Source of the DNA: a virus
DNA: 64,000 bases
Virus record (IMG/VR): IMGVR_UViG_3300027741_002766
Span: 44,738-108,737 of that record
Strand: one strand, 5' to 3'
In this document: piece by piece, positions 7,101 to 44,843 of the stretch
Position numbering within the stretch: the first letter of the stretch is position 1
How the letters are laid out: every line of letters starts with the position of its first letter
The notes under the pieces: generated by a model
Told to the model about the DNA's origin: nothing
Seen by the model: only the letters and a program-made list of their open reading frames with translations
Database searches by the model: none
Translations under genes and position numbers: made by a program

Positions 7101-10100
7101 TGCAAACACATTGTCTCGGGCCTGTGCGACACCAGCGCCAAATTTATTGCTGGCCACTGACGGAACCACGGTGAGTTGTCCACTGGTATGGAATACCTCT
7201 TGTTTTTGCACAACCTCCCACAAACCTGCACCGTTGTTGTCGATCCAGGCACGATCTCCTGGTATCAAGTCATTGGCATACGGCAAGGTAATAATGTCAC
7301 TGCCCTGAGCCACTCGCTGACTTTGTAGAGTAAATGCTGTTCCTGTTCCTGTAGCAACGATTTGATCTTGTTGCAAGAATGAGAATGACACAGTGACTTG
7401 ATTGATACCAGGCACATTCAGCACAGTGTATACACCATCTGCACCTGATCCAAAGTACTTGAGCAACAGTATGTTGTCTGCAACCAAGCCGTGTGCTCGA
7501 TTAAATCGGATTACCGACGTACCATTCAAGTTGCTGTTGATTTGCGTGACTTGCGCAGGTATCTGGGCAGTTCTGTAAATTCCCCAATCATAGTCATTGA
7601 TCTTGGCCACCCATATTATGGTACCCACATTCACGTTGTTGAGTTCGGCAGCCAAACTAGCAGTGTTGTTAATGTTGAACACAGTGATGTCAACATCGTC
7701 TACATTGACATATCCTGCTGACGGCAATGCTGTGTCAGTTTTCTTGACCAAGGTTGTGGTCAAAATATCGGGTGTGGTTATTCGATAACTTTCAGCCCAG
7801 AGATTATCAACATAAACGGTTTGTTGTGCAAGACTTGGTTCGTCAGGTATGGTCACTTGAATCAAACTGGGATTTGAAGTTAGCAATGCTTCGTTCAATC
7901 TCAATTCATAAAAACTCTTGTTGGCATTGGCCCCGTACGTGCCGCGTTGTATGGCCCAGTTTTCGTAGATATTGTATTCAGATACTCCGCGACCAAGATC
8001 AGCAAAAGTAAAAATTTCTGCGGCACGAACAGTGCCCTTGGTGCCAAGAAATTGCCTATAGAGATTTACTTGACTGGTGCTGTCAAGATTCAGTGCCACC
8101 ATGTACTCTCTGGGCTTGAACCCAATCAAGTTGTAGGCAAACAGATCTTGGTTGATTTCAAGATTGGCCTGATACACATCATAACTGTTGGCCAACTGAT
8201 CACTCTTGTTGGACAAATTGGGCAATAGGCCTTGTTGTATCTTGGTATAGTCACTGCGTGTCCAGTAGTTGAAGTTGAATTCTGGGCTGGGTTGCACAAT
8301 ATCAACTGCACTGTAGTAGAAGTTTTTGTACAACACAATCTCGCCGCGAGCATACTTGCGCAAGGGATCCCACTCTTTCACATTGTTTTGATTGAGTATA
8401 AATCCAGGAGCGTTCAATTGACCGTTCCAATTTTGTGAGGTTGAACCTATCAGTCGCACTCGATTTTGTCTAGCACCTGTAGCAGGATAATAGATCAAAT
8501 CCGCAAAGATACTTTGATTGTCCAACACTACCATGTTTTCGTATGACGTAAACTTGATGTGAAAATAGTTTATAGTATCGGCTGTTAAACTTTTCAATGT
8601 AAATGTATTGTCCAGTCTTTCCACCACAAGATCTCTTGTGGCAAAAGGAGTACGTTCTGCATTGAGTACCATGTTTTCTGTGGTCTGTAGTGCAATACTG
8701 TCCACAATGGCTCCTGGGCGCTCTACTATGACCTGTGTGGCTCCAGGATTCAAATTGATAATACTGCCTTCGGCCCAGCCTTGACCGCTCCAGTACAAGA
8801 ATTCGCTGACCATCTGATTCCAGTCCAGCATGTAACCGTTTTCCAGTTGGGTAAACAACATGCCTTGCTGTTGCAATAATGCACCATAACTCAACAAGAA
8901 ATCGGCTACCAAGGTTCTGTTGGTAAACACATAGCCATAAGGAACTTGTACCACCCGGTTGGTGTAGGTCACAGGCACACGCACTTCATATCCACCGGCA
9001 TTAATAGTGCTTAACACTCCATTGACACGACTGACCAAGATATTAAAGTAAGGTTGTGTGGTGCTGTACCCATACACTGCCCAGCCATTGGCAGTTGATT
9101 GTACAATTATACTGCTGTAGGTCAACTGATCAAATGGCACATTCTTGTAGAACAACAAGTTGTAACTTTCGTCGGGCAACAACAAACTCGAATTTAGACT
9201 GTTGGGACTGGATTTTTCAGTGTAGATCTGCAGGAGATTTTTGCCCGAAAATGCTGCCATTCGGTAGCACAGTCGCACATCAAGATTTTTAAGATCTGCT
9301 GTGAGAGTGTCAGTTGAGTTGATTCCGCTGATTCGATTGTAGTCCACAATCCAGTCAATGTAACTGGCCTTGCTGACTCCATTGCCATACACTTCAATGC
9401 CATTGGCATCCAGTCTATAACGACCATTATAAAGATATTGTCCCAGTTCTGGATCATAGCGATACAAATCACGATCAGCAAACAAACTAAAGAATTCAGC
9501 AGGACGTGTGAGTGCCAACAAGCGCATGATAGCAAAGGGGTATGCACTACTGGTTCGCCAGGCATTTTCGACAGGAGCATCATCGCCTACTGCCCAATTT
9601 CTTTGGAAATTGTTGCTGTTGAAATTGCCCACCATGACTTCAATTGGAGCCAGTAACAGGCCTTCACTTGAGGAAGGAATCACTTGTGTCAGTTGAGGTC
9701 TAGCATACTGAGGCAACACATAAGGTGCAATCGGATCTCGAACTAGACCAGCAGCCAAGTCGTCCCACAGCACCAAGTTGCCTGAGGTGTAGGGAGCAGG
9801 ACCATACTCGGCTTCCCACCATGAGGGCATTACTGTAAATCCCAACATCTCCCAAGGTCTTGTGTTGGGACTTGTGGTATCATAAAAGTAGTTGTAGATA
9901 CCGCGCCAGGCGCCCACAGCCAATGGTTCATTGTTGTTGAGTTTGTTACCGGCTGTGCTGTAGTTCCAGGTAAATGCATTGGCAGCCCGGTAATCTTGAG
10001 ATTTGTAATCCAATTTGTTCCAGCCCACCCAGGTCAAGAAGTCTTGACTTTCTATTTGGGTGATTTCTCCCAGTGTATAATCTGTTGTACGGAACTGTCC

Positions 10101-29407: not shown

Positions 29408-30285
29408 CAGATACAATTGCCATTGATTTTGTAGCAGGGACTCATGGTCATTTTCTTGAGACCACCCTGAATCGATTTTTTCGCATCACCCCTGACATGA
29501 CTGAATCTTTTACTGCAACAGGAACCAGTCATCTCAAAACCAATGAGTACCAACAAAACAAATTGTTTTGGGCCAGGCATTGGTTTGAACTTGAGCCTGT
29601 GCATCTAGCAAATTTACAAAAGATCATATCTATTAGATTCACGCAGGACGACTTGCTACTGGTATCTACAGCAAGTTTGTTACGGACTGCGGACTTCAAT
29701 ATCAACAATGATGATCTCGAAATTGACACAGTCAACAAGTTGAGCAACAATTTTTATCAGACAACTTTGGAACAGATTTATGCGGCATATCCGTTTTTGG
29801 ATCGAGCACAAGTATCCATACCCAGACATGTGCTGAGAGAATTTTATAAATTTGGTTTTAGAAATCCCCACATCAACGGCTATTGGTTGAAACAACAAGC
29901 CATGACATATCCCACACACTGCGACATTTGTTTTTTTGATTTTTCTGCTTTTTACGACCTAGACCAGTTGGTTCAAAATATCAAGAAAGTGGAAAAATTT
30001 ATAGACAAAAAATTTGATTTTTCCCAAGAGTTCTATCAACAGCATGAAAAATTTTTGAGTTTCATAACCTACCACCAGCACAAACAACAGTGCGACCATG
30101 TGATAGAATGTGTCAAACACGGCATGGATATCTCTATTCCAAGGCTCACATTGTTTCAAGAGAGTTACATCAATGGCTGTTTGGAAAATATCTACCACAA
30201 AGAAATGCCGTTTGATCAGGATAGGTACTTTACTTCTACTAAAGATATGCTATACTATATTACTAACCTTGCTCCAAATTTATGA
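29404..30285 (+). CDS. Hypothetical protein, possible sulfotransferase-like P-loop fold
   Basis: N-terminal 'IAIDFVAGTHGHFLE' (strand, Gly loop, helix); ATGA-coupled at both ends. Fold guess is weak. Confidence 0.6.
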   Translation: MTDTIAIDFVAGTHGHFLETTLNRFFRITPDMTESFTATGTSHLKTNEYQQNKLFWARHWFELEPVHLANLQKIISIRFTQDDLLLVSTASLLRTADFNINNDDLEIDTVNKLSNNFYQTTLEQIYAAYPFLDRAQVSIPRHVLREFYKFGFRNPHINGYWLKQQAMTYPTHCDICFFDFSAFYDLDQLVQNIKKVEKFIDKKFDFSQEFYQQHEKFLSFITYHQHKQQCDHVIECVKHGMDISIPRLTLFQESYINGCLENIYHKEMPFDQDRYFTSTKDMLYYITNLAPNL

Positions 30286-32045
30286 TCCAAATTAAAAATT
30301 TAACTGTTCGAAACTTCATGAGTGTGGGTGCGGCCACGCAAGGCATTGACTTTGACCGTAGTGACCTTACACTTGTGCTGGGCGAGAACTTGGACCTGGG
30401 CGGTGATGGCTCACGCAACGGCACAGGCAAGACCACAATCATCAATGCACTAAGTTATGCCTTGTATGGTCAAGCACTTTCAAACATTCGCAAGGACAAT
30501 CTAGTAAACAAGACCAATGGCAAGAACATGTTGGTCAGTTTGGACTTTAGTGTCAACAGCCAAGAGTACAGAATTGAGCGTGGACGAAAGCCAAATGTAT
30601 TGCGTTTCTACGTCAACAACGAACACAAGGCAGCCGAAGACGAAGCACAAGGTGACTCAAGAGAAACACAGGATGCCATAGAACGTGTGATGAACATGAG
30701 TCATGACATGTTCAAACATGTGCTGGCGCTGAACACTTATACTGAACCGTTTCTAAGTTTAAAAGCCAATGATCAAAGAACTATCATTGAACAGTTGTTG
30801 GGTATTACACTATTGAGTGAACGTGCTGATGCAATCAAAGAACTTAACAGACAGACCAAAGATGCTATACAGGTAGAAGAGTTTCGCATTCGTGCTGTGC
30901 AAGAGGCCAACAAGCGCATCGAAGAACAGATTGAAAGTCTGCGTAAGCGTCAACGTCTTTGGATTACCAAACGTGATGAAGATGTGGGCAAACTAGGACA
31001 GGCTATTCAAGATCTCGAACATATAGACATTGATGCCGAAGTACAGGCACATAGAGATCTAGAAGCATTCCATGTCAAGAAGAAAGCCATAGACGATGCC
31101 ACGCGATACATTCGTCAGATTGATGCAGATGATGCCAAACTTACCAAACTGTTAGACAAACTCAAACGAGAAATTGAAGCACTGGATGCTCACAAGTGTC
31201 ACAGTTGCGGGCAAGACCTACATGATGACAAACAAGATGAGTTGAAGCAGGCCAAACAAGCCTTGGTACAAGAAACTGCATTACAACTCCTGGCCAACGA
31301 TACTCAACGAATTGAGCATACTGATACCTTGGAAAAACTAGGTGAACTAGGCTCTGCTCCTACTGTGTTTTATGATACATTAGAACAGGCGTTGAATCAT
31401 CGCAATACTGTAGAAACCTTACGCAAGGATTTGACCACAAGGCAAGCAGATGTGGATCCCTACGAAGAACAAATCACAGACATGCAAGGACAAGCATTAC
31501 AAACAGTATCATATGATACCTTGAACGAACTCACTAGAGTGCAGGATCATCAAGACTTCCTACTCAAACTGCTGACGTCAAAAGATTCGTTCGTACGCAA
31601 AAAGATTATTGATCAGAATTTGAGTTATTTGAACGCAAGACTCACACACTATCTGGATCGTATTGGATTGCCACACACAGTGAAGTTCCAGAACGATCTC
31701 ACAGTGAGCATCGAAGAACTGGGCCGTGAACTGGACTTTGACAACCTGAGCCGTGGCGAACGCAATCGATTGATACTATCAATGTCATGGGCGTTCCGAG
31801 ATGTTTGGGAAAGTTTATACTCACCAATCAACTTGTTGTTTATTGATGAACTGATCGACAACGGTCTAGACACACAAGGTGTAGAGAATGCTTTGGCTCT
31901 GCTGAAGAAAATGAGTAGAGAGCGTCACAAATCAATTTGGTTAGTATCACATCGTGATGAACTGGCTGGGCGTGTGGAGAACATACTCAAAGTCATAAAA
32001 GAAAACGGATTTACCAGTTACAACACTGACGTAGATCTTGCATAA
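30282..32045 (+). CDS. gp46: Recombination ATPase, Rad50/SbcC-like (T4 gp46)
   Basis: Walker A 'RNGTGKTT', coiled coil with CHSC hook, signature 'LSRGE', Walker B 'LLFIDE', H-loop 'VSH'. Confidence 0.95.
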   Translation: MIQIKNLTVRNFMSVGAATQGIDFDRSDLTLVLGENLDLGGDGSRNGTGKTTIINALSYALYGQALSNIRKDNLVNKTNGKNMLVSLDFSVNSQEYRIERGRKPNVLRFYVNNEHKAAEDEAQGDSRETQDAIERVMNMSHDMFKHVLALNTYTEPFLSLKANDQRTIIEQLLGITLLSERADAIKELNRQTKDAIQVEEFRIRAVQEANKRIEEQIESLRKRQRLWITKRDEDVGKLGQAIQDLEHIDIDAEVQAHRDLEAFHVKKKAIDDATRYIRQIDADDAKLTKLLDKLKREIEALDAHKCHSCGQDLHDDKQDELKQAKQALVQETALQLLANDTQRIEHTDTLEKLGELGSAPTVFYDTLEQALNHRNTVETLRKDLTTRQADVDPYEEQITDMQGQALQTVSYDTLNELTRVQDHQDFLLKLLTSKDSFVRKKIIDQNLSYLNARLTHYLDRIGLPHTVKFQNDLTVSIEELGRELDFDNLSRGERNRLILSMSWAFRDVWESLYSPINLLFIDELIDNGLDTQGVENALALLKKMSRERHKSIWLVSHRDELAGRVENILKVIKENGFTSYNTDVDLA

Positions 32046-32122
32046 TTTCATATTGTAGGCATATTTTTAGATCAATCAATCAAGAGGCATAACTATATCG
32101 CAAGGACAAATCTTACACTTTT

Positions 32123-32551
32123 ATGACATGGCAATATCAAAACACTCCTGTAGAGACGTTGCCCGAAGACTGTGTAGGGTTTGTTTACTTGATCACAAAT
32201 AATCTTTCTGGACGCAAGTACATAGGCAAAAAATTAGCAAAATTCGCAAAAACCACATACAAAACTGTAAAACAAAAAAACGGCACAAAAAAGCGGAAGA
32301 AGATACGCTCTAAAATCGATTCAGATTGGAGAGAGTACTATGGGTCAAGCCCAGAATTGACCGCAGACGTAATCACACTAGGCACCGAAAACTTTACCAG
32401 AGAAATACTTTACTATTGCAAAAGCAAGTCTGAATGCTCGTACATTGAGGCCCGTGAACAATTTGCAAGGCGAGTATTGGAATCACAAGATTATTACAAT
32501 GGCCACATCCAGGTGCGGGTGCATGGCTCACACATAATAAACAAAATTTAA
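32123..32551 (+). CDS. Compact GIY-YIG endonuclease
   Basis: 'GFVYLITNNLSGRKYIGKK', 'YYGSS', conserved Glu (YIEAREQ) and Asn (YYNG); Lys/Arg-rich insert; no NUMOD domains. TAACTA box upstream at 32090-32095. Confidence 0.88.
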   Translation: MTWQYQNTPVETLPEDCVGFVYLITNNLSGRKYIGKKLAKFAKTTYKTVKQKNGTKKRKKIRSKIDSDWREYYGSSPELTADVITLGTENFTREILYYCKSKSECSYIEAREQFARRVLESQDYYNGHIQVRVHGSHIINKI

Positions 32552-32553
32552 CA

Positions 32554-32895
32554 GGCAGCGATCACGACTCTGTGCTGAGTGTTTGGGCTCAGCCCCATTG
32601 AAGAACGGTGAGATACCCGGTCTGGACTTGGGCGTCAAAGGCAAATTGCTAACTTAAGGCAACAAATGGTTTGGGCTCCGTTGAAAAAGATACGACCCAT
32701 GCTTATAGGACTTGGATCTATATCGGGTTACTAGGGTTCCGTTGATATGTGAAGCGTGAGTAGGGGGTACCGGTCAACCGCCTCCGTGTGTGCAAACACA
32801 ATCTCATTAGTATAGATGACTGCTGTCACTCGGATGATGCGCTCTCATTTTCACCGTGCATACGGTGAATTATGACCACGTAATCTGGATGATAC
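32554..32895 (+). ncRNA. Candidate large structured non-coding RNA
   Basis: ORF-free interval with nested stems: GGCAGCG/TGCTGTC long-range, GCTGAG/CTCAGC, ATCTATA/TATAGAT, GGGGG/CCTCC around CGG-TCAA-CCG, TGTGT-GCAA-ACACA, TTCACCGT-GCAT-ACGGTGAA. Family not recognised. Confidence 0.6.
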
Positions 32896-32926
32896 TTAAT
32901 CAGTAACAGTGTTTATGAAACAATCC

Positions 32927-32968
32927 ATTGATGAACGAAGTGAATCAATAGACTTGCGTAGCAAGTCT
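32927..32968 (+). repeat. Two adjacent inverted repeats with C(GNA)G triloops
   Basis: ATTGAT-GA-AC-GAA-GT-GA-ATCAAT and AGACTTGC-GTA-GCAAGTCT. Confidence 0.8.
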
Positions 32969-33508
32969 CTAAAGTAACTGTAACTGTTTCAACTTTGAGA
33001 TATAGTATGGTTGTCCTTGAGCAACTGATTGACGCCAATCATCATGTGCATCTTGATTGGCTTGATCGCTGATGTATTTCCAACACTCAAATTCAACTCC
33101 ATACTTTGCACAGGCTTTGGCAATGGCATAGGCTTCCATATCTACTATGTCTGCTGGTATTTCTAGTTGGGGATTCATCACAAAGTTATCACCGGTACTG
33201 CAAGTCAGTCCAATTGTGTTGCCAATATGTACGTTGGTTTCAAAAGGCGTTTGTCCAGGCACACATCCCAAGGCTTCGCAGATCATGTCACGTTGTACAA
33301 ACTGGGTACACTGATAGAATCCTGGTGCAACAGTGATGCCTCCGGCTGTGCCAAAGTTGATGATGCGTCGGGGACGATACTTGGCTATGACTTCGGCGGT
33401 GACCATGGCAGCATTGACCTTGCCCACACCTGTGTAAAACAAGTTCATCATGTGGCCAAGATCCGGTGCCTCTTCAGGCAAGGCTATTAGAATAACAGTG
33501 TCATACAT
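32969..33508 (-). CDS. mtnN: MTA/SAH nucleosidase (PNP_UDP family)
   Basis: 'ALPEE', 'GVGKVNAA', 'INFGTAGG', 'TGDNFV', 'VDMEAYAIA', 'KYISDQA'. Confidence 0.9.
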   Translation of the reverse strand: MYDTVILIALPEEAPDLGHMMNLFYTGVGKVNAAMVTAEVIAKYRPRRIINFGTAGGITVAPGFYQCTQFVQRDMICEALGCVPGQTPFETNVHIGNTIGLTCSTGDNFVMNPQLEIPADIVDMEAYAIAKACAKYGVEFECWKYISDQANQDAHDDWRQSVAQGQPYYISKLKQLQLL

Positions 33509-44021: not shown

Positions 44022-44082
44022 TTGACTTTTCTTTCTAAAAATGTTATTGTTACAAGGCGAAATTGCGGTGAGAAACTAAATA
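44022..44082 (+). promoter_or_regulatory. Sigma70-like promoter plus late TAAATA for the homing endonuclease
   Basis: TTGACT, 17 nt, TG-T-TATTGT (44022-44050); TAAATA at 44077-44082, 5 nt before ATG 44088. Confidence 0.5.
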
Positions 44083-44087
44083 ACAAT

Positions 44088-44843
44088 ATGAAACCATACA
44101 CCTATCTAATAAAACATCGTCCTACAAGCAAAGTCTATTATGGATATCGTTCTGCTAACCAAGTAAATCCGTGTGATGATCTTTGGAAACATTATTTTAC
44201 CAGTAGTCATGGTGTACAACAGTTGATTGATGAAACCGGCGCAGATAGTTTTGATGTGGAAATACGCAGAATATTTGAAACCAAAGAACAGGCAAGCAAC
44301 TGGGAAACCCGAGTATTACGTCGCTGCCGAGTATTAGAAGACGAGCGTTGGCTTAATCAAAACATTGCCGGTTATATTGTGCCCACCAAAGAAAGCCGAA
44401 AAAAGATCAGTGACTACCACAAAGGAAAACCTAAGAGTGATCAACACAAACAAAATCTAAGTAAATCACAAAAAGGTAAATCAAAAAATTATGTACAAAC
44501 AGAAGAACACAAAAGAAAAAATTCTTTAGCAAACAGTGGGAAAAATAATCCGATGTACGGTACTTGTACACCTGAACGTGCGGCAAATATAAGTGCCGCT
44601 AAAAAAGGTAAACCTGCCGCAAACAAAGGTGTTCCGATGAGTGAAGAGCAAAAAGCAAAGATTCGTGCTACTAAAGCCATTAGTCCAACTAAGATGAGTG
44701 CGGAGTCAATCGCTCGCCGGATAGCCAAACAAACTGGCCAAAAACGACAAAAACTACACTGCCCACATTGTGAACGAGACATAGCAGTCGGGTGGTATAA
44801 TCGGCACGGTGATCAATGCCGCGCCCGACTAAATACCTTGTGA
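44088..44843 (+). CDS. Free-standing GIY-YIG (Seg-like) homing endonuclease with NUMOD3-like repeats
   Basis: 'PYTYLIKHRPTSKVYYGYR', 'YFTSS', 'WE..VL', 'WLNQN'; repeats 'KSDQHKQNLSKSQKGK', 'SGKNNPMYG', 'MSEEQKAKI'; CPHC tail. Confidence 0.88.
   Translation: MKPYTYLIKHRPTSKVYYGYRSANQVNPCDDLWKHYFTSSHGVQQLIDETGADSFDVEIRRIFETKEQASNWETRVLRRCRVLEDERWLNQNIAGYIVPTKESRKKISDYHKGKPKSDQHKQNLSKSQKGKSKNYVQTEEHKRKNSLANSGKNNPMYGTCTPERAANISAAKKGKPAANKGVPMSEEQKAKIRATKAISPTKMSAESIARRIAKQTGQKRQKLHCPHCERDIAVGWYNRHGDQCRARLNTL

What the first reader, a model, noticed from the sequence alone, without database searches (positions are those of the whole stretch)
32123..32895. Minimal GIY-YIG nuclease followed directly by a ~340-nt structured non-coding RNA: candidate nuclease-RNA system
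Seen: the largest ORF-free gap in a very dense window begins at the nuclease stop codon, with no terminator between. A long-range stem GGCAGCG-A-TCA (32554-32564) / TGA-C-TGCTGTC (32817-32827) closes a ~275-nt domain. Inside are GCTGAG/CTCAGC (32574-32593), TTGC/GCAA, TGGG/CCCA, ATCTATA/TATAGAT (32716/32811), TGAG/CTCA, GGGGG/CCTCC around CGG-TCAA-CCG, and a GNRA hairpin TGTGT-GCAA-ACACA (32787-32800). Several G-U pairs favour RNA on the + strand. GTTTGGGCTC occurs twice (32581, 32669) and GGGYTCCGTTGA twice (32673, 32734). The 142-aa nuclease lacks the NUMOD DNA-binding arms of the homing endonuclease at 44088 but has a very basic insert (KTVKQKNGTKKRKKIRSK). Known: compact nucleases paired with adjacent RNAs exist (IscB/omegaRNA, TnpB/reRNA), and T4 origins use RNA R-loops. 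Inference: an RNP in which the RNA scaffolds or targets the nuclease, or an RNA-primed origin processed by it. I could not match it to a known RNA family.
Basis: partly seen in the sequence, partly recalled or inferred. Interest (0 to 1): 0.8.

Follow-up and report, generated by a model that had tools for sequence, protein, structure and literature searches.

The report
Twin-box structured RNA beside phage nuclease
The gene-free gap behind a small nuclease gene of this uncultured giant lake phage encodes a real, intricately folded RNA of about 410 bases that carries the same 7-letter word twice. Its job is unknown, and nothing shows that it guides the nuclease.

Summary
32552-32968 is the largest ORF-free stretch of the window, and it encodes a + strand structured RNA.

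- **Structure.** On 77 homologues, 66 proposed pairs are 96.7% paired and 37 carry double changes. There are two pseudoknots and a GNRA hairpin.
- **Known families.** The window's RNA matches no Rfam family. It shares its 3' half with sister RNAs at the same locus whose 5' part is Rfam Polynucleobacter-1 (RF01718). A third, uncatalogued type and bacterial copies also exist.
- **Common element.** All share a "twin-box" module: CUC-[7-mer]...hairpin...UCU-[same 7-mer]. The word changes in evolution (GGAUGAU, AGAUAAU, ACAUGAA, AGCGAAA) but stays identical in both copies (141/142 and 142/142).
- **Neighbours.** The RNA nearly always lies next to a small nuclease gene: GIY-YIG, or an unrelated PD-(D/E)XK in five loci.
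- **Against an obligate nuclease-RNA pair.**
  - The GIY-YIG family occurs without the RNA in cultured phages.
  - Bacterial copies have no GIY-YIG neighbour.
  - Neither box column co-varies with any column of the GIY-YIG gene.
  - No variable guide or target was found.
- **Verdict.** A new variant of a poorly known RNA kind, function unknown. This scan found the same RNA on other DNA before.

The parts
32123..32551 (+). Gene for a 142-aa stand-alone GIY-YIG nuclease (family phrog_447, mislabelled 'NAD synthetase'). The basic insert folds as a long beta-hairpin arm.
   Evidence: Pfam PF19835 E 3e-33. PHROG 447 E 5e-37. AlphaFold2 pLDDT 92.7, strands 40-50 and 56-66. Best sensible fold match is the I-TevI catalytic domain 1ln0_B, prob 0.93. 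GIY, YIG, R93-E94 and N126 are invariant in 25 homologues.
32560..32738 (+). 5' domain of the RNA, specific to the window type. Helices: H1 32566-68/32634-36; H2 32574-80/32587-93; H3 32594-97/32629-32; H4 32602-04/32621-23 and 32606-08/32617-19; H5 32646-50/32658-62; H6 32672-75/32696-99; H7 32706-15/32723-33.
   Evidence: Covariation counts on 77 sequences. No RF01718 match at E <= 10. A covariance model of 32560-32650 finds nothing in Polynucleobacter-1-type loci.
32739..32806 (+). Conserved pseudoknotted core. Pk1 32741-46 (GUUGAU) pairs with 32773-78 (GUCAAC) inside the loop of Pb 32763-68/32780-85. Pa is 32757-60/32803-06. GNRA hairpin Pc is 32788-91/32796-99. The nearly invariant GGUACCGGUCAACCGCCUC lies at 32766-84.
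   Evidence: Pa has A-U 40 versus U-A 35; all 4 Pc pairs covary; Pk1 has 2 covarying pairs. Pk1 is also kept in divergent types as GUUGUG/CACAAC and GUUGU/ACAAC. The pattern retrieves 117 real loci in IMG/VR.
32716..32817 (+). Long-range pairing Pk2: the loop of H7 (32716-22, AUCUAUA) pairs with 32811-17 (UAUAGAU), tying the 5' domain to the twin-box module.
   Evidence: Mean longest helix is 7.8 bp with the sequence's own partner versus 5.98 +/- 0.13 (maximum 6.30) with partners from other sequences. Examples: AUCUAUU/AAUAGAU, AUUUAUUAU/AUAAUAAAU, CUUGUAU/AUACAAG.
32811..32896 (+). Twin-box module: AUGAC 32816-20, CUC + box 1 GGAUGAU 32832-38, hairpin 32850-56/32863-69, AUGAC 32872-76, UCU + box 2 GGAUGAU 32887-93.
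   Evidence: Columns 32832/32887 are identical in 141 of 142 distinct sequences, and 32836/32891 in 142 of 142. All four A/G combinations occur, with about 28 and 17 parsimony changes. The module is kept in RNA types B and C and in bacterial copies with other words.
32927..32968 (+). Two terminal hairpins without a U tract: 32927-32/32944-49 (inner C-GAA-G loop) and 32950-57/32961-68 (GUA loop). Probable 3' end of the RNA, abutting the stop of the convergent gene 32969-33508.
   Evidence: Compensatory changes in both: pairs 431-456, AGACTTGC..GCAAGTCT versus AGATCTC..GAGATCT versus AGATGTAC..GTACATCT. GNRA-type loops read on the + strand. No terminator-like site by scan.

Best explanation
The gap encodes one stable, trans-acting structured RNA of about 410 nt (about 32560-32968, + strand). 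It belongs to an informal 'twin-box' family that includes the RNAs whose 5' part is Rfam Polynucleobacter-1.

**Shown**
- A multi-helix fold with two pseudoknots.
- A conserved core.
- A 3' module in which two copies of one 7-nt word flank a hairpin.
- One copy in each of the four genomes searched.
- A fixed locus at the end of the gp47-gp46-nuclease gene row.

**Inferred**
- The RNA is transcribed as the 3' extension of the nuclease mRNA, since no promoter or terminator lies between them.
- Pk2 docks the 5' domain onto the twin-box module.
- The two boxes lie side by side in the same 5'-3' register and touch each other like-with-like (A.A changing to G.G, and so on), or touch one shared partner. 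This makes a pseudo-symmetric platform that is the working end of the RNA.

**Role of the nuclease**
- The nuclease is a co-expressed neighbour. It may be a client, for example held in check or recruited by the RNA.
- The RNA is not a guide that programmes the nuclease.
- The biological role is unknown.
For: **Structure**
- 96.7% of cells are paired versus 87.3% in shuffles and 35-49% when partners are slid. 37 of 66 pairs have double changes.
- Pk2 is supported against shuffled partners.
- Invariant G.U pairs fix the strand.

**Family**
- nhmmer links the window RNA to types B and C through the 3' part.
- RF01718 scores 71-120 bits on the 5' part of type B at the same locus.
- Bacterial RF01718 loci have the same CUC-box...hairpin...UCU-box layout with other words.

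**Twin boxes**
- Identity is 141/142 and 142/142, with about 28 and 17 independent changes.
- No third covarying column lies in the gene, the RNA or 400 nt beyond.
- No tracking site was found within 3-10 kb or at homologous places of whole genomes.
- A two-site change inside 55 nt is the cheapest way to explain so many switches.

**Other**
- One copy per genome in the four genomes searched.
- No promoter or terminator between gene and RNA.
Against: **Limits of the evidence**
- No transcription data exist, so the ends, processing and stability are inferred.
- Like-with-like contacts in a parallel register over 6-7 nt have no well-known natural RNA precedent. C.C pairs (boxes with C) would be weak.
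- The search for a trans partner covered only DNA that aligns between genomes (39-137 kb per genome pair) and no host genome, so a shared nucleic-acid partner is not excluded.

**Signs of a tighter link to the nuclease than 'neighbour'**
- Non-homologous nucleases recur next to the RNA.
- In L184 the gene order is reversed but adjacency is kept.

**Possible second conformation**
- 32749-53 can also pair with 32850-54.
Confidence: 0.55

Rival explanations
1. Nuclease-RNA system. The RNA works with the adjacent small nuclease: as scaffold, inhibitor ('antitoxin-like' control of a dangerous structure-specific nuclease) or specificity subunit. The two identical boxes would address two nuclease copies to two identical or inverted half-sites.
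For: - About 9 in 10 RNA loci have the GIY-YIG gene directly upstream on the same strand.
- Of the eight loci without a close GIY-YIG homologue, four (L195, L239, L290, L228) have the unrelated PF24608 PD-(D/E)XK nuclease upstream on the same strand, directly adjacent in three. L184 has it directly downstream, and L284 has a long Seg-like GIY-YIG.
- The RNA starts within a few bases of the stop codon.
- The protein has a basic beta-hairpin arm fit for nucleic-acid binding.
- The box words differ between lineages like address elements.
- Strict identity without G.U tolerance would suit pairing to DNA.
Against: - The same GIY-YIG family (phrog_447) in ACP17, phiN3, P-HM1, S-SRM01 and Melnitz is followed by gaps of only 0-148 nt.
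- Bacterial copies lie next to DUF6641 and DUF6876 genes, not GIY-YIG.
- L187 and L248 have no recognisable nuclease.
- 1-kb genes can be inserted between nuclease and RNA.
- Neither variable box column co-varies with any column of the GIY-YIG gene.
- RNA types A, B and C all occur behind GIY-YIG proteins 92-93% identical to the window's.
- No target site tracks the box.
- The shared slot beside gp46 also explains the adjacency: PA5oct-like phages have the PD-(D/E)XK gene there too.
Confidence: 0.2
2. Trans-acting riboregulator or sponge. The two boxes are twin seeds that pair with, or mimic, one short sequence in another phage or host RNA or DNA, or bind two copies of one factor.
For: - The 7-nt length is typical of seeds.
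- Both copies always carry the same word, and the word differs between lineages.
- The conserved single-stranded-looking flanks CUC and UCU would present the words.
Against: - Each of the roughly 45 switches would need a third change elsewhere, yet none was found in the locus or in alignable parts of four genomes.
- A host target could not vary this fast.
- A-to-G changes opposite U would be neutral in RNA-RNA pairing and would not enforce identity.
- No Nop, L7Ae or reverse-transcriptase gene is present in complete genomes.
Confidence: 0.15
3. Cis element of DNA or of transcription: a replication origin, a bidirectional terminator zone between convergent operons, or protein-binding direct repeats, rather than a functional RNA.
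For: - The region lies between convergent gene rows.
- The terminal hairpins have GNA-type loops that are also stable in DNA.
- The direct repeats resemble iterons.
Against: - Thirty-seven covarying pairs with many G.U pairs that would be A.C on the other strand.
- GNRA loops kept through stem changes.
- Two pseudoknots.
- No GC-skew turn at the locus.
- Box spacing varies from 48 to 64 nt, with rare outliers.
- Bacterial copies lie upstream of a same-strand gene in another context.
Confidence: 0.05

Closest known systems
Polynucleobacter-1 RNA motif (Rfam RF01718; Weinberg et al. 2010, PMC2864571)
   Same: Sister RNAs at the very same locus (L081, L044, L082) match RF01718 over its full 141 positions at 71-120 bits. 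They share their 3' half with the window RNA: core pseudoknot, twin boxes and terminal hairpins (nhmmer E 1e-13 to 1e-19). Bacterial RF01718 loci have the same twin-box layout. The habitat is the same, fresh water.
   Different: The window RNA does not match RF01718 even at E <= 10, and its 5' domain model finds nothing in RF01718-type loci. Rfam covers only the first third or so of the full RNA. The paper lists the motif in a table only, as a possible cis-regulatory RNA with no function.
Large ornate RNAs of unknown function often carried by phages (GOLLD, ROOL; Nature 2025, PMC12286853)
   Same: Several hundred nucleotides, many helices and pseudoknots, phage-borne, no known function. Internal pseudo-symmetry would suit self-assembly.
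   Different: No Rfam match to GOLLD, ROOL, OLE, raiA or HEARO. The RNA is smaller and not next to tRNA genes. Oligomerisation was not tested.
Guide RNAs of compact nucleases (IscB omegaRNA/HEARO, TnpB reRNA, TIGR-Tas tigRNA)
   Same: A structured RNA encoded next to a small nuclease gene, with short lineage-specific words presented twice (as in TIGR dual guides).
   Different: The effector families are different: GIY-YIG or PD-(D/E)XK, with no RuvC/HNH effector and no Nop domain. There is no variable guide at an RNA end and no target was found. The two words are identical rather than two different spacers.
Free-standing Seg-type GIY-YIG homing endonucleases of T4-like phages
   Same: The protein is a PF19835 SegE-type GIY-YIG domain. 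One relative (L284) has the full form with NUMOD3 at this position.
   Different: At 142 aa it lacks any DNA-binding C-terminal domain. It is near-universal and well conserved in this phage group (84-95% identity; at least 8000 clusters) rather than sporadic. Its cyanophage relatives are listed as conserved gene cluster GC 213.

Membership tests
Rfam RF01718 Polynucleobacter-1 | Covariance-model score at or above the gathering score (37 bits) | tested here: not met
   No match in window 31500-33500 at E <= 10 or in the whole 108.7-kb record at E <= 10. The positive control worked: L081 120 bits, L044 114 bits, L082 71 bits.
Rfam RF01718 Polynucleobacter-1 | Homology of the 5' domain detectable in the reverse direction (model of the window-type 5' domain against RF01718-type loci) | tested here: not met
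   Model R1 (92 positions) found only chance-level matches elsewhere (E 1.3-4.1) in 20 type-B loci.
Informal 'twin-box' RNA family (full-length RNAs that include Polynucleobacter-1-type, window-type and type C) | 3' module: CUC-[7-mer]...hairpin...UCU-[same 7-mer], followed by terminal hairpins | tested here: met
   Window: GGAUGAU at 32832-38 and 32887-93 around hairpin 32850-69. The same layout occurs in 176 loci, in type C and in bacterial RF01718 loci.
Informal 'twin-box' RNA family | Conserved pseudoknotted core (CCGUUG... paired with the loop of GGUACCG..CAACCGCCUC) | tested here: met
   Present at 32739-32785. Covariation. Shared with type B. Type C lacks the GGUACCG..CAACCGCCUC motif.
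Group I intron with homing-endonuclease ORF | Rfam Intron_gpI match and an interrupted host gene | tested here: not met
   No match at E <= 10. gp46 upstream is complete (covers residues 1-580 of its PA5oct homologue), and the downstream gene is on the other strand.
IscB/TnpB-type guide RNA (HEARO/omegaRNA, reRNA) | Adjacent RuvC-type effector, and a variable guide segment at an RNA end that matches flanking or target DNA | tested here: not met
   The neighbour is GIY-YIG or PD-(D/E)XK. No HEARO match. No variable terminal segment. No site tracks the boxes.
TIGR-Tas / box C/D-type dual-guide RNA | Nop-domain or L7Ae-type partner protein; C (RUGAUGA) and D (CUGA) boxes | tested here: not met
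   PF01798 gives only 13-bit sub-threshold hits in 2 of 5 genomes, and PF01248 gives none. The boxes read RGAURAU and AUGAC, and their order is D-like then C-like.
Reverse-transcriptase template RNA with terminal homology (DRT2/DRT10-like, telomerase-like) | An associated reverse transcriptase; for DRT2, an open frame in the concatenated repeat unit | tested here: not met
   No PF00078 match in three 95-100% complete genomes. 88 of 119 distinct units give no stop-free frame when concatenated.
SegE-type GIY-YIG nuclease (PF19835 / phrog_447) | Profile match over the cut-off, a GIY-YIG fold, and conserved catalytic residues | tested here: met
   115 bits against a cut-off of 25. phrog_447 E 5e-37. 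Model matches the I-TevI catalytic domain. Invariant Y22, Y33, R93, N126, with E94 in at least 90%. Enzyme activity cannot be tested here.

The most novel reading that the evidence does not exclude
The two identical 7-nt boxes are a new kind of RNA element. Either they form a short parallel-register like-with-like contact (A.A/G.G/U.U) that any sequence can satisfy as long as both copies match, or they are a duplicated programmable address. In the second case the RNA would direct the neighbouring small nuclease (GIY-YIG or PD-(D/E)XK) or another factor to a repeated or palindromic nucleic-acid site. That would be a nuclease-RNA system unrelated to CRISPR, IscB/TnpB and TIGR.
Probability: 0.2. 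Interest if true: 0.9.

Novelty: new variant of a known kind. Interest (0 to 1): 0.68.

Why it matters
This is a large, abundant, strongly conserved RNA of giant freshwater phages, with relatives in Polynucleobacter-like bacteria, and no known function. Only a third or so of a sister form is catalogued.

Its twin boxes show identity covariation, not complementarity, with dozens of independent switches. Standard RNA biology does not predict that signature, and covariation tools built for Watson-Crick pairs cannot see it.

Working out what enforces the identity could reveal one of two things:
- a new RNA structural principle;
- a new way of addressing nucleic acids.

The recurrent neighbourhood with two unrelated small nucleases makes a nuclease-linked role directly testable.

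Tried and rejected
**RNA identity**
- Rfam at E <= 10 on the window: nothing real. tRNA/tmRNA: none.
- Single-sequence folding: not special.
- Window-type 5' domain as a reduced Polynucleobacter-1: no model match in either direction.

**Similarity searches**
- DNA similarity to 50,697 deposited phage records: none.
- A strict core pattern in 596 Gb of prokaryote genomes: 95 hits. Only 3 are real, all on MAG contigs, and one MAG holds two of them plus a further RF01718-matching contig.

**Partner for the boxes**
- A cis partner: no third covarying column.
- A nearby complement: only the constant TCATCT at the start of a 144-aa ORF.
- A genome-wide partner at homologous positions in four genomes: only the boxes themselves plus one chance synonymous site.
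- No genome-wide enrichment of a phage's own box word.
- Pairing between the two spacers that follow the AUGAC words, and between boxes and AUGAC words: no consistent complementarity (by inspection).
- Box 1 pairing with the AUCU before box 2 (RNAalifold's suggestion): only one-sided changes. My re-count was mis-registered by an alignment gap, so it is inconclusive.

**Other models**
- Rolling-circle or 'never-ending ORF' template: no RT, no consistent open frame.
- TIGR/C-D-like: no Nop or L7Ae.
- Translational bypass (GGA-UGA take-off and landing): no ORF enters box 1, because a stop lies at 32817-19 in that frame.
- Origin of replication: no skew turn.
- Defence-system libraries: only a generic homing-endonuclease hit.
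Full report
**1. What is there**

The window is the right-hand 64 kb of a 108.7-kb IMG/VR virus record, estimated about 30% complete. Its relatives include complete genomes of 342-347 kb. The recombination gene gp46 is 51% identical to that of Pseudomonas jumbo phage PA5oct.

Local layout:
- gp46/SbcC, 30282-32045 (+)
- a 142-aa GIY-YIG gene, 32123-32551 (+)
- a 417-nt gap, 32552-32968
- on the other strand, a nucleoside phosphorylase-like gene (32969-33508), a phosphoribosyltransferase gene, and the baseplate-hub genes

The gap is the largest ORF-free stretch of the window. No sigma-70-like promoter or intrinsic terminator separates gene and gap.

**2. Is it a structured RNA?**

The single sequence folds no better than shuffles (z = -0.49). 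Comparison with homologues is decisive.
- A protein-anchored scan of IMG/VR returned 80 loci with GIY-YIG proteins 84-95% identical. About 40 of them carry the gap sequence at 77-92% identity.
- An RNA-only pattern, GGTACCGNNCAACCGCCTC, returned 120 more loci, 117 of them real.
- On 77 distinct full-length sequences (alignment A2) I tested 66 pairs in 13 helices:
  - 96.7% of cells pair, against 87.3% in shuffles and 35-49% when partners are slid by 1-3 columns.
  - 37 pairs change on both sides.
- The GNRA hairpin keeps GCAA, GAAA or GCGA loops over four covarying pairs.
- Two pseudoknots are supported:
  - 32741-46 with 32773-78, changing to GUUGUG/CACAAC and GUUGU/ACAAC in divergent forms;
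  - the loop of H7 (32716-22) with 32811-17, where the sequence's own partner gives 7.8 bp against 5.98 +/- 0.13 with shuffled partners.
- Invariant G.U pairs place the RNA on the + strand.
- The terminal hairpins (32927-49, 32950-68) also covary. The RNA therefore spans about 32560-32968.
- Each of the four genomes searched holds one copy.

Its closing stem is not conserved, because the 5' half is a 10-nt indel missing from most homologues. Its inner CGG/CCG hairpin is replaced by the pseudoknot.

**3. What family?**

The window RNA has no Rfam match, even at E <= 10. nhmmer shows that other RNAs at the same locus share only its 3' part.
- **Type B** (L081, L044, L082 and others). Its first 135 nt or so match Rfam Polynucleobacter-1 (RF01718) at 71-120 bits.
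- **Type C** (L057, L029, L007 and others; about a quarter of the protein-anchored loci). It is about 480 nt long, has no Rfam match, and lacks the GGUACCG..CAACCGCCUC core motif, yet it keeps the 3' module.
- A covariance model of the window's 5' domain finds nothing in type B loci. The 5' domains are therefore alternative or diverged beyond detection.
- RF01718 also matches 3-4 of 151 sampled Burkholderiales genomes of 1.7-1.9 Mb. Those RNAs have the same 3' layout.
- The only paper in the library that names the motif lists it in a table without a function.

**4. The twin boxes**

All forms share one layout: CUC-[7-mer]...hairpin...UCU-[same 7-mer], with a spacing of 48-64 nt and rare outliers.

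The word varies by lineage:

| Form | Box word |
|---|---|
| Window | GGAUGAU |
| Other phage types A and B | AGAUGAU, AGAUAAU, GGAUAAU, AGCUGA, AGACGA, AGAUCA, ACGAAA, UGGUAA |
| Type C | ACAUGAA |
| Bacterial copies and MAG contig L350 | AGCGAAA, GGCGAAA, AGCGAUG, AUCGAAA |

Sources.

Key numbers, from 142 distinct 3' domains:
- Position 1 is the same in both boxes in 141 cases, and position 5 in all 142.
- All four A/G combinations occur.
- Parsimony counts about 28 and 17 changes on a tree built from the rest of the domain.
- These are the two strongest couplings of the domain. They are identity couplings, not complementary ones, and they sit in the same register (offset 55 for both).
- The one exception (L056, G/A) looks like a recombinant.
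- A second pair of words (AUGAC at 32816-20 and 32872-76) also changes in step: ACGAC/ACGAC, AUGUCC/AUGUCC, GUGAC/GUGAC.

Searches for a partner all came back empty:
- No third column in the nuclease gene, the RNA or 400 nt beyond tracks the boxes.
- No complement within 3-10 kb tracks them.
- At homologous positions of four genomes with four different box variants, only the boxes themselves co-vary.

A-to-G changes opposite a U would be neutral in RNA-RNA pairing. Ordinary pairing therefore does not explain the identity. What remains:
- a direct like-with-like contact of the two boxes, which needs only two linked changes per switch;
- a shared partner that does not tolerate wobble.

I favour the first on parsimony, but it is an inference.

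**5. Relation to the nuclease**

*For a functional link*
- About nine in ten RNA loci found without using the protein have the GIY-YIG gene directly upstream on the same strand.
- Among the eight loci without a close GIY-YIG homologue:
  - L195, L239, L290 and L228 have the unrelated PF24608 PD-(D/E)XK nuclease upstream on the same strand, directly adjacent in three and separated by a reverse-strand ORF in L239;
  - L184 has it directly downstream;
  - L284 has a long Seg-like GIY-YIG with NUMOD3;
  - L187 and L248 have no recognisable nuclease.

*Against an obligate pair*
- The GIY-YIG family (phrog_447, at least 8000 clusters) occurs in five cultured phages. There the downstream gaps are only 0-148 nt, too short for the RNA.
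- Genes of 257-337 aa can sit between nuclease and RNA.
- RNA types A, B and C all occur behind GIY-YIG proteins that are 92-93% identical to the window's.
- Neither variable box column co-varies with any column of the GIY-YIG gene.
- Bacterial copies neighbour DUF6641 and DUF6876 genes instead.
- The locus is a fixed slot next to gp46, with variable islands on both sides. PA5oct-like phages carry the PF24608 gene in that slot. Shared ancestry of the slot therefore explains much of the adjacency.

*The protein*
- It is a confident GIY-YIG fold (pLDDT 92.7) with conserved catalytic residues.
- The 'basic insert' forms a beta-hairpin arm.

**6. Other readings tested**
- Group I intron: no model match and no interrupted gene.
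- Guide RNA of the IscB/TnpB kind: no such effector, no guide, no target.
- TIGR or box C/D: no Nop or L7Ae gene.
- Reverse-transcription template with terminal homology: no RT gene, and no open frame in the concatenated unit.
- Translational bypass: no reading frame enters box 1.
- Replication origin: no GC-skew turn.
- A possible alternative pairing of 32749-53 with 32850-54 competes with the hairpin between the boxes. It is kept in three RNA forms and hints at two conformations.

**7. Verdict**

The RNA is a new variant of a poorly known kind. The whole twin-box RNA is undescribed in the literature I could search. Only the 5' third or so of a sister type is in Rfam.

Earlier reports of this scan reached the same family on other DNA. 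I re-derived their main claims here and added:
- the PD-(D/E)XK replacement;
- the second pseudoknot;
- type C;
- the bacterial box words;
- the switch counts;
- the whole-genome negative search.

Noticed in passing
L002:7018-8531 (Pseudomonas phage MIJ3, LR588166.1 about 270748-272261): At the equivalent locus of PA5oct-like phages, next to the PF24608 'D14' nuclease gene, lies a 1.5-kb stretch with no ORF over 52 aa. It holds a perfect TTGACA-17-TATAAT at about 7153-7181 (+) and a GAAA-loop hairpin terminator near 8122-8150. There is no Rfam or tRNA match. It is a candidate long non-coding transcript.
   Followed up: partly
L057:3690-4160, L029:3440-3915, L007, L016, L076 and others: A third RNA type ('type C', about 480 nt) starts CUAACACYUAAGGUUGGCGGGCC. 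It has no Rfam match and lacks the GGUACCG..CAACCGCCUC core motif of types A and B, but keeps the twin-box module with ACAUGAA twice.
   Followed up: partly
L351-L354 (Burkholderiales genomes G058, G011, G072, G100) and L350: Bacterial Polynucleobacter-1 RNAs are about 500 nt long, not 141, and end in the same twin-box module (AGCGAAA, GGCGAAA, AGCGAUG). In the two loci examined (L351, L354) the RNA is divergent from a DUF6641 gene; in L354 a DUF6876 gene follows.
   Followed up: partly
L124, L137, L350 (MAG 'Haliscomenobacter sp. EUL_031', contigs ctg3, ctg1, C184): One bacterial MAG holds three different contigs carrying this RNA, two of type A and one matching RF01718. This is either phage contigs binned by mistake or a hint to the host.
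   Followed up: no
window 32046-32122, and relatives L019, L021, L025, L031 and others: Between gp46 and the GIY-YIG gene, relatives carry 0-4 extra genes, including a 336-aa radical-SAM protein. The minus-strand side of the RNA is equally variable: the phosphorylase and phosphoribosyltransferase pair of the window is replaced elsewhere by a 111/144/166-aa trio. The RNA sits between two variable islands.
   Followed up: partly
window 44079-44366 (G000:C1:88816-89103): A second, weaker PF19835 match (38 bits) lies inside a 295-aa ORF.
   Followed up: no
window 32749-32753 and 32850-32854: GUGAA upstream of the core repeats the 3' strand of the hairpin between the boxes and can pair with its 5' strand (UUCAC). 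The same relation holds in divergent forms (CAAG/CUUG, AAAG/CUUU), suggesting two alternative conformations.
   Followed up: partly
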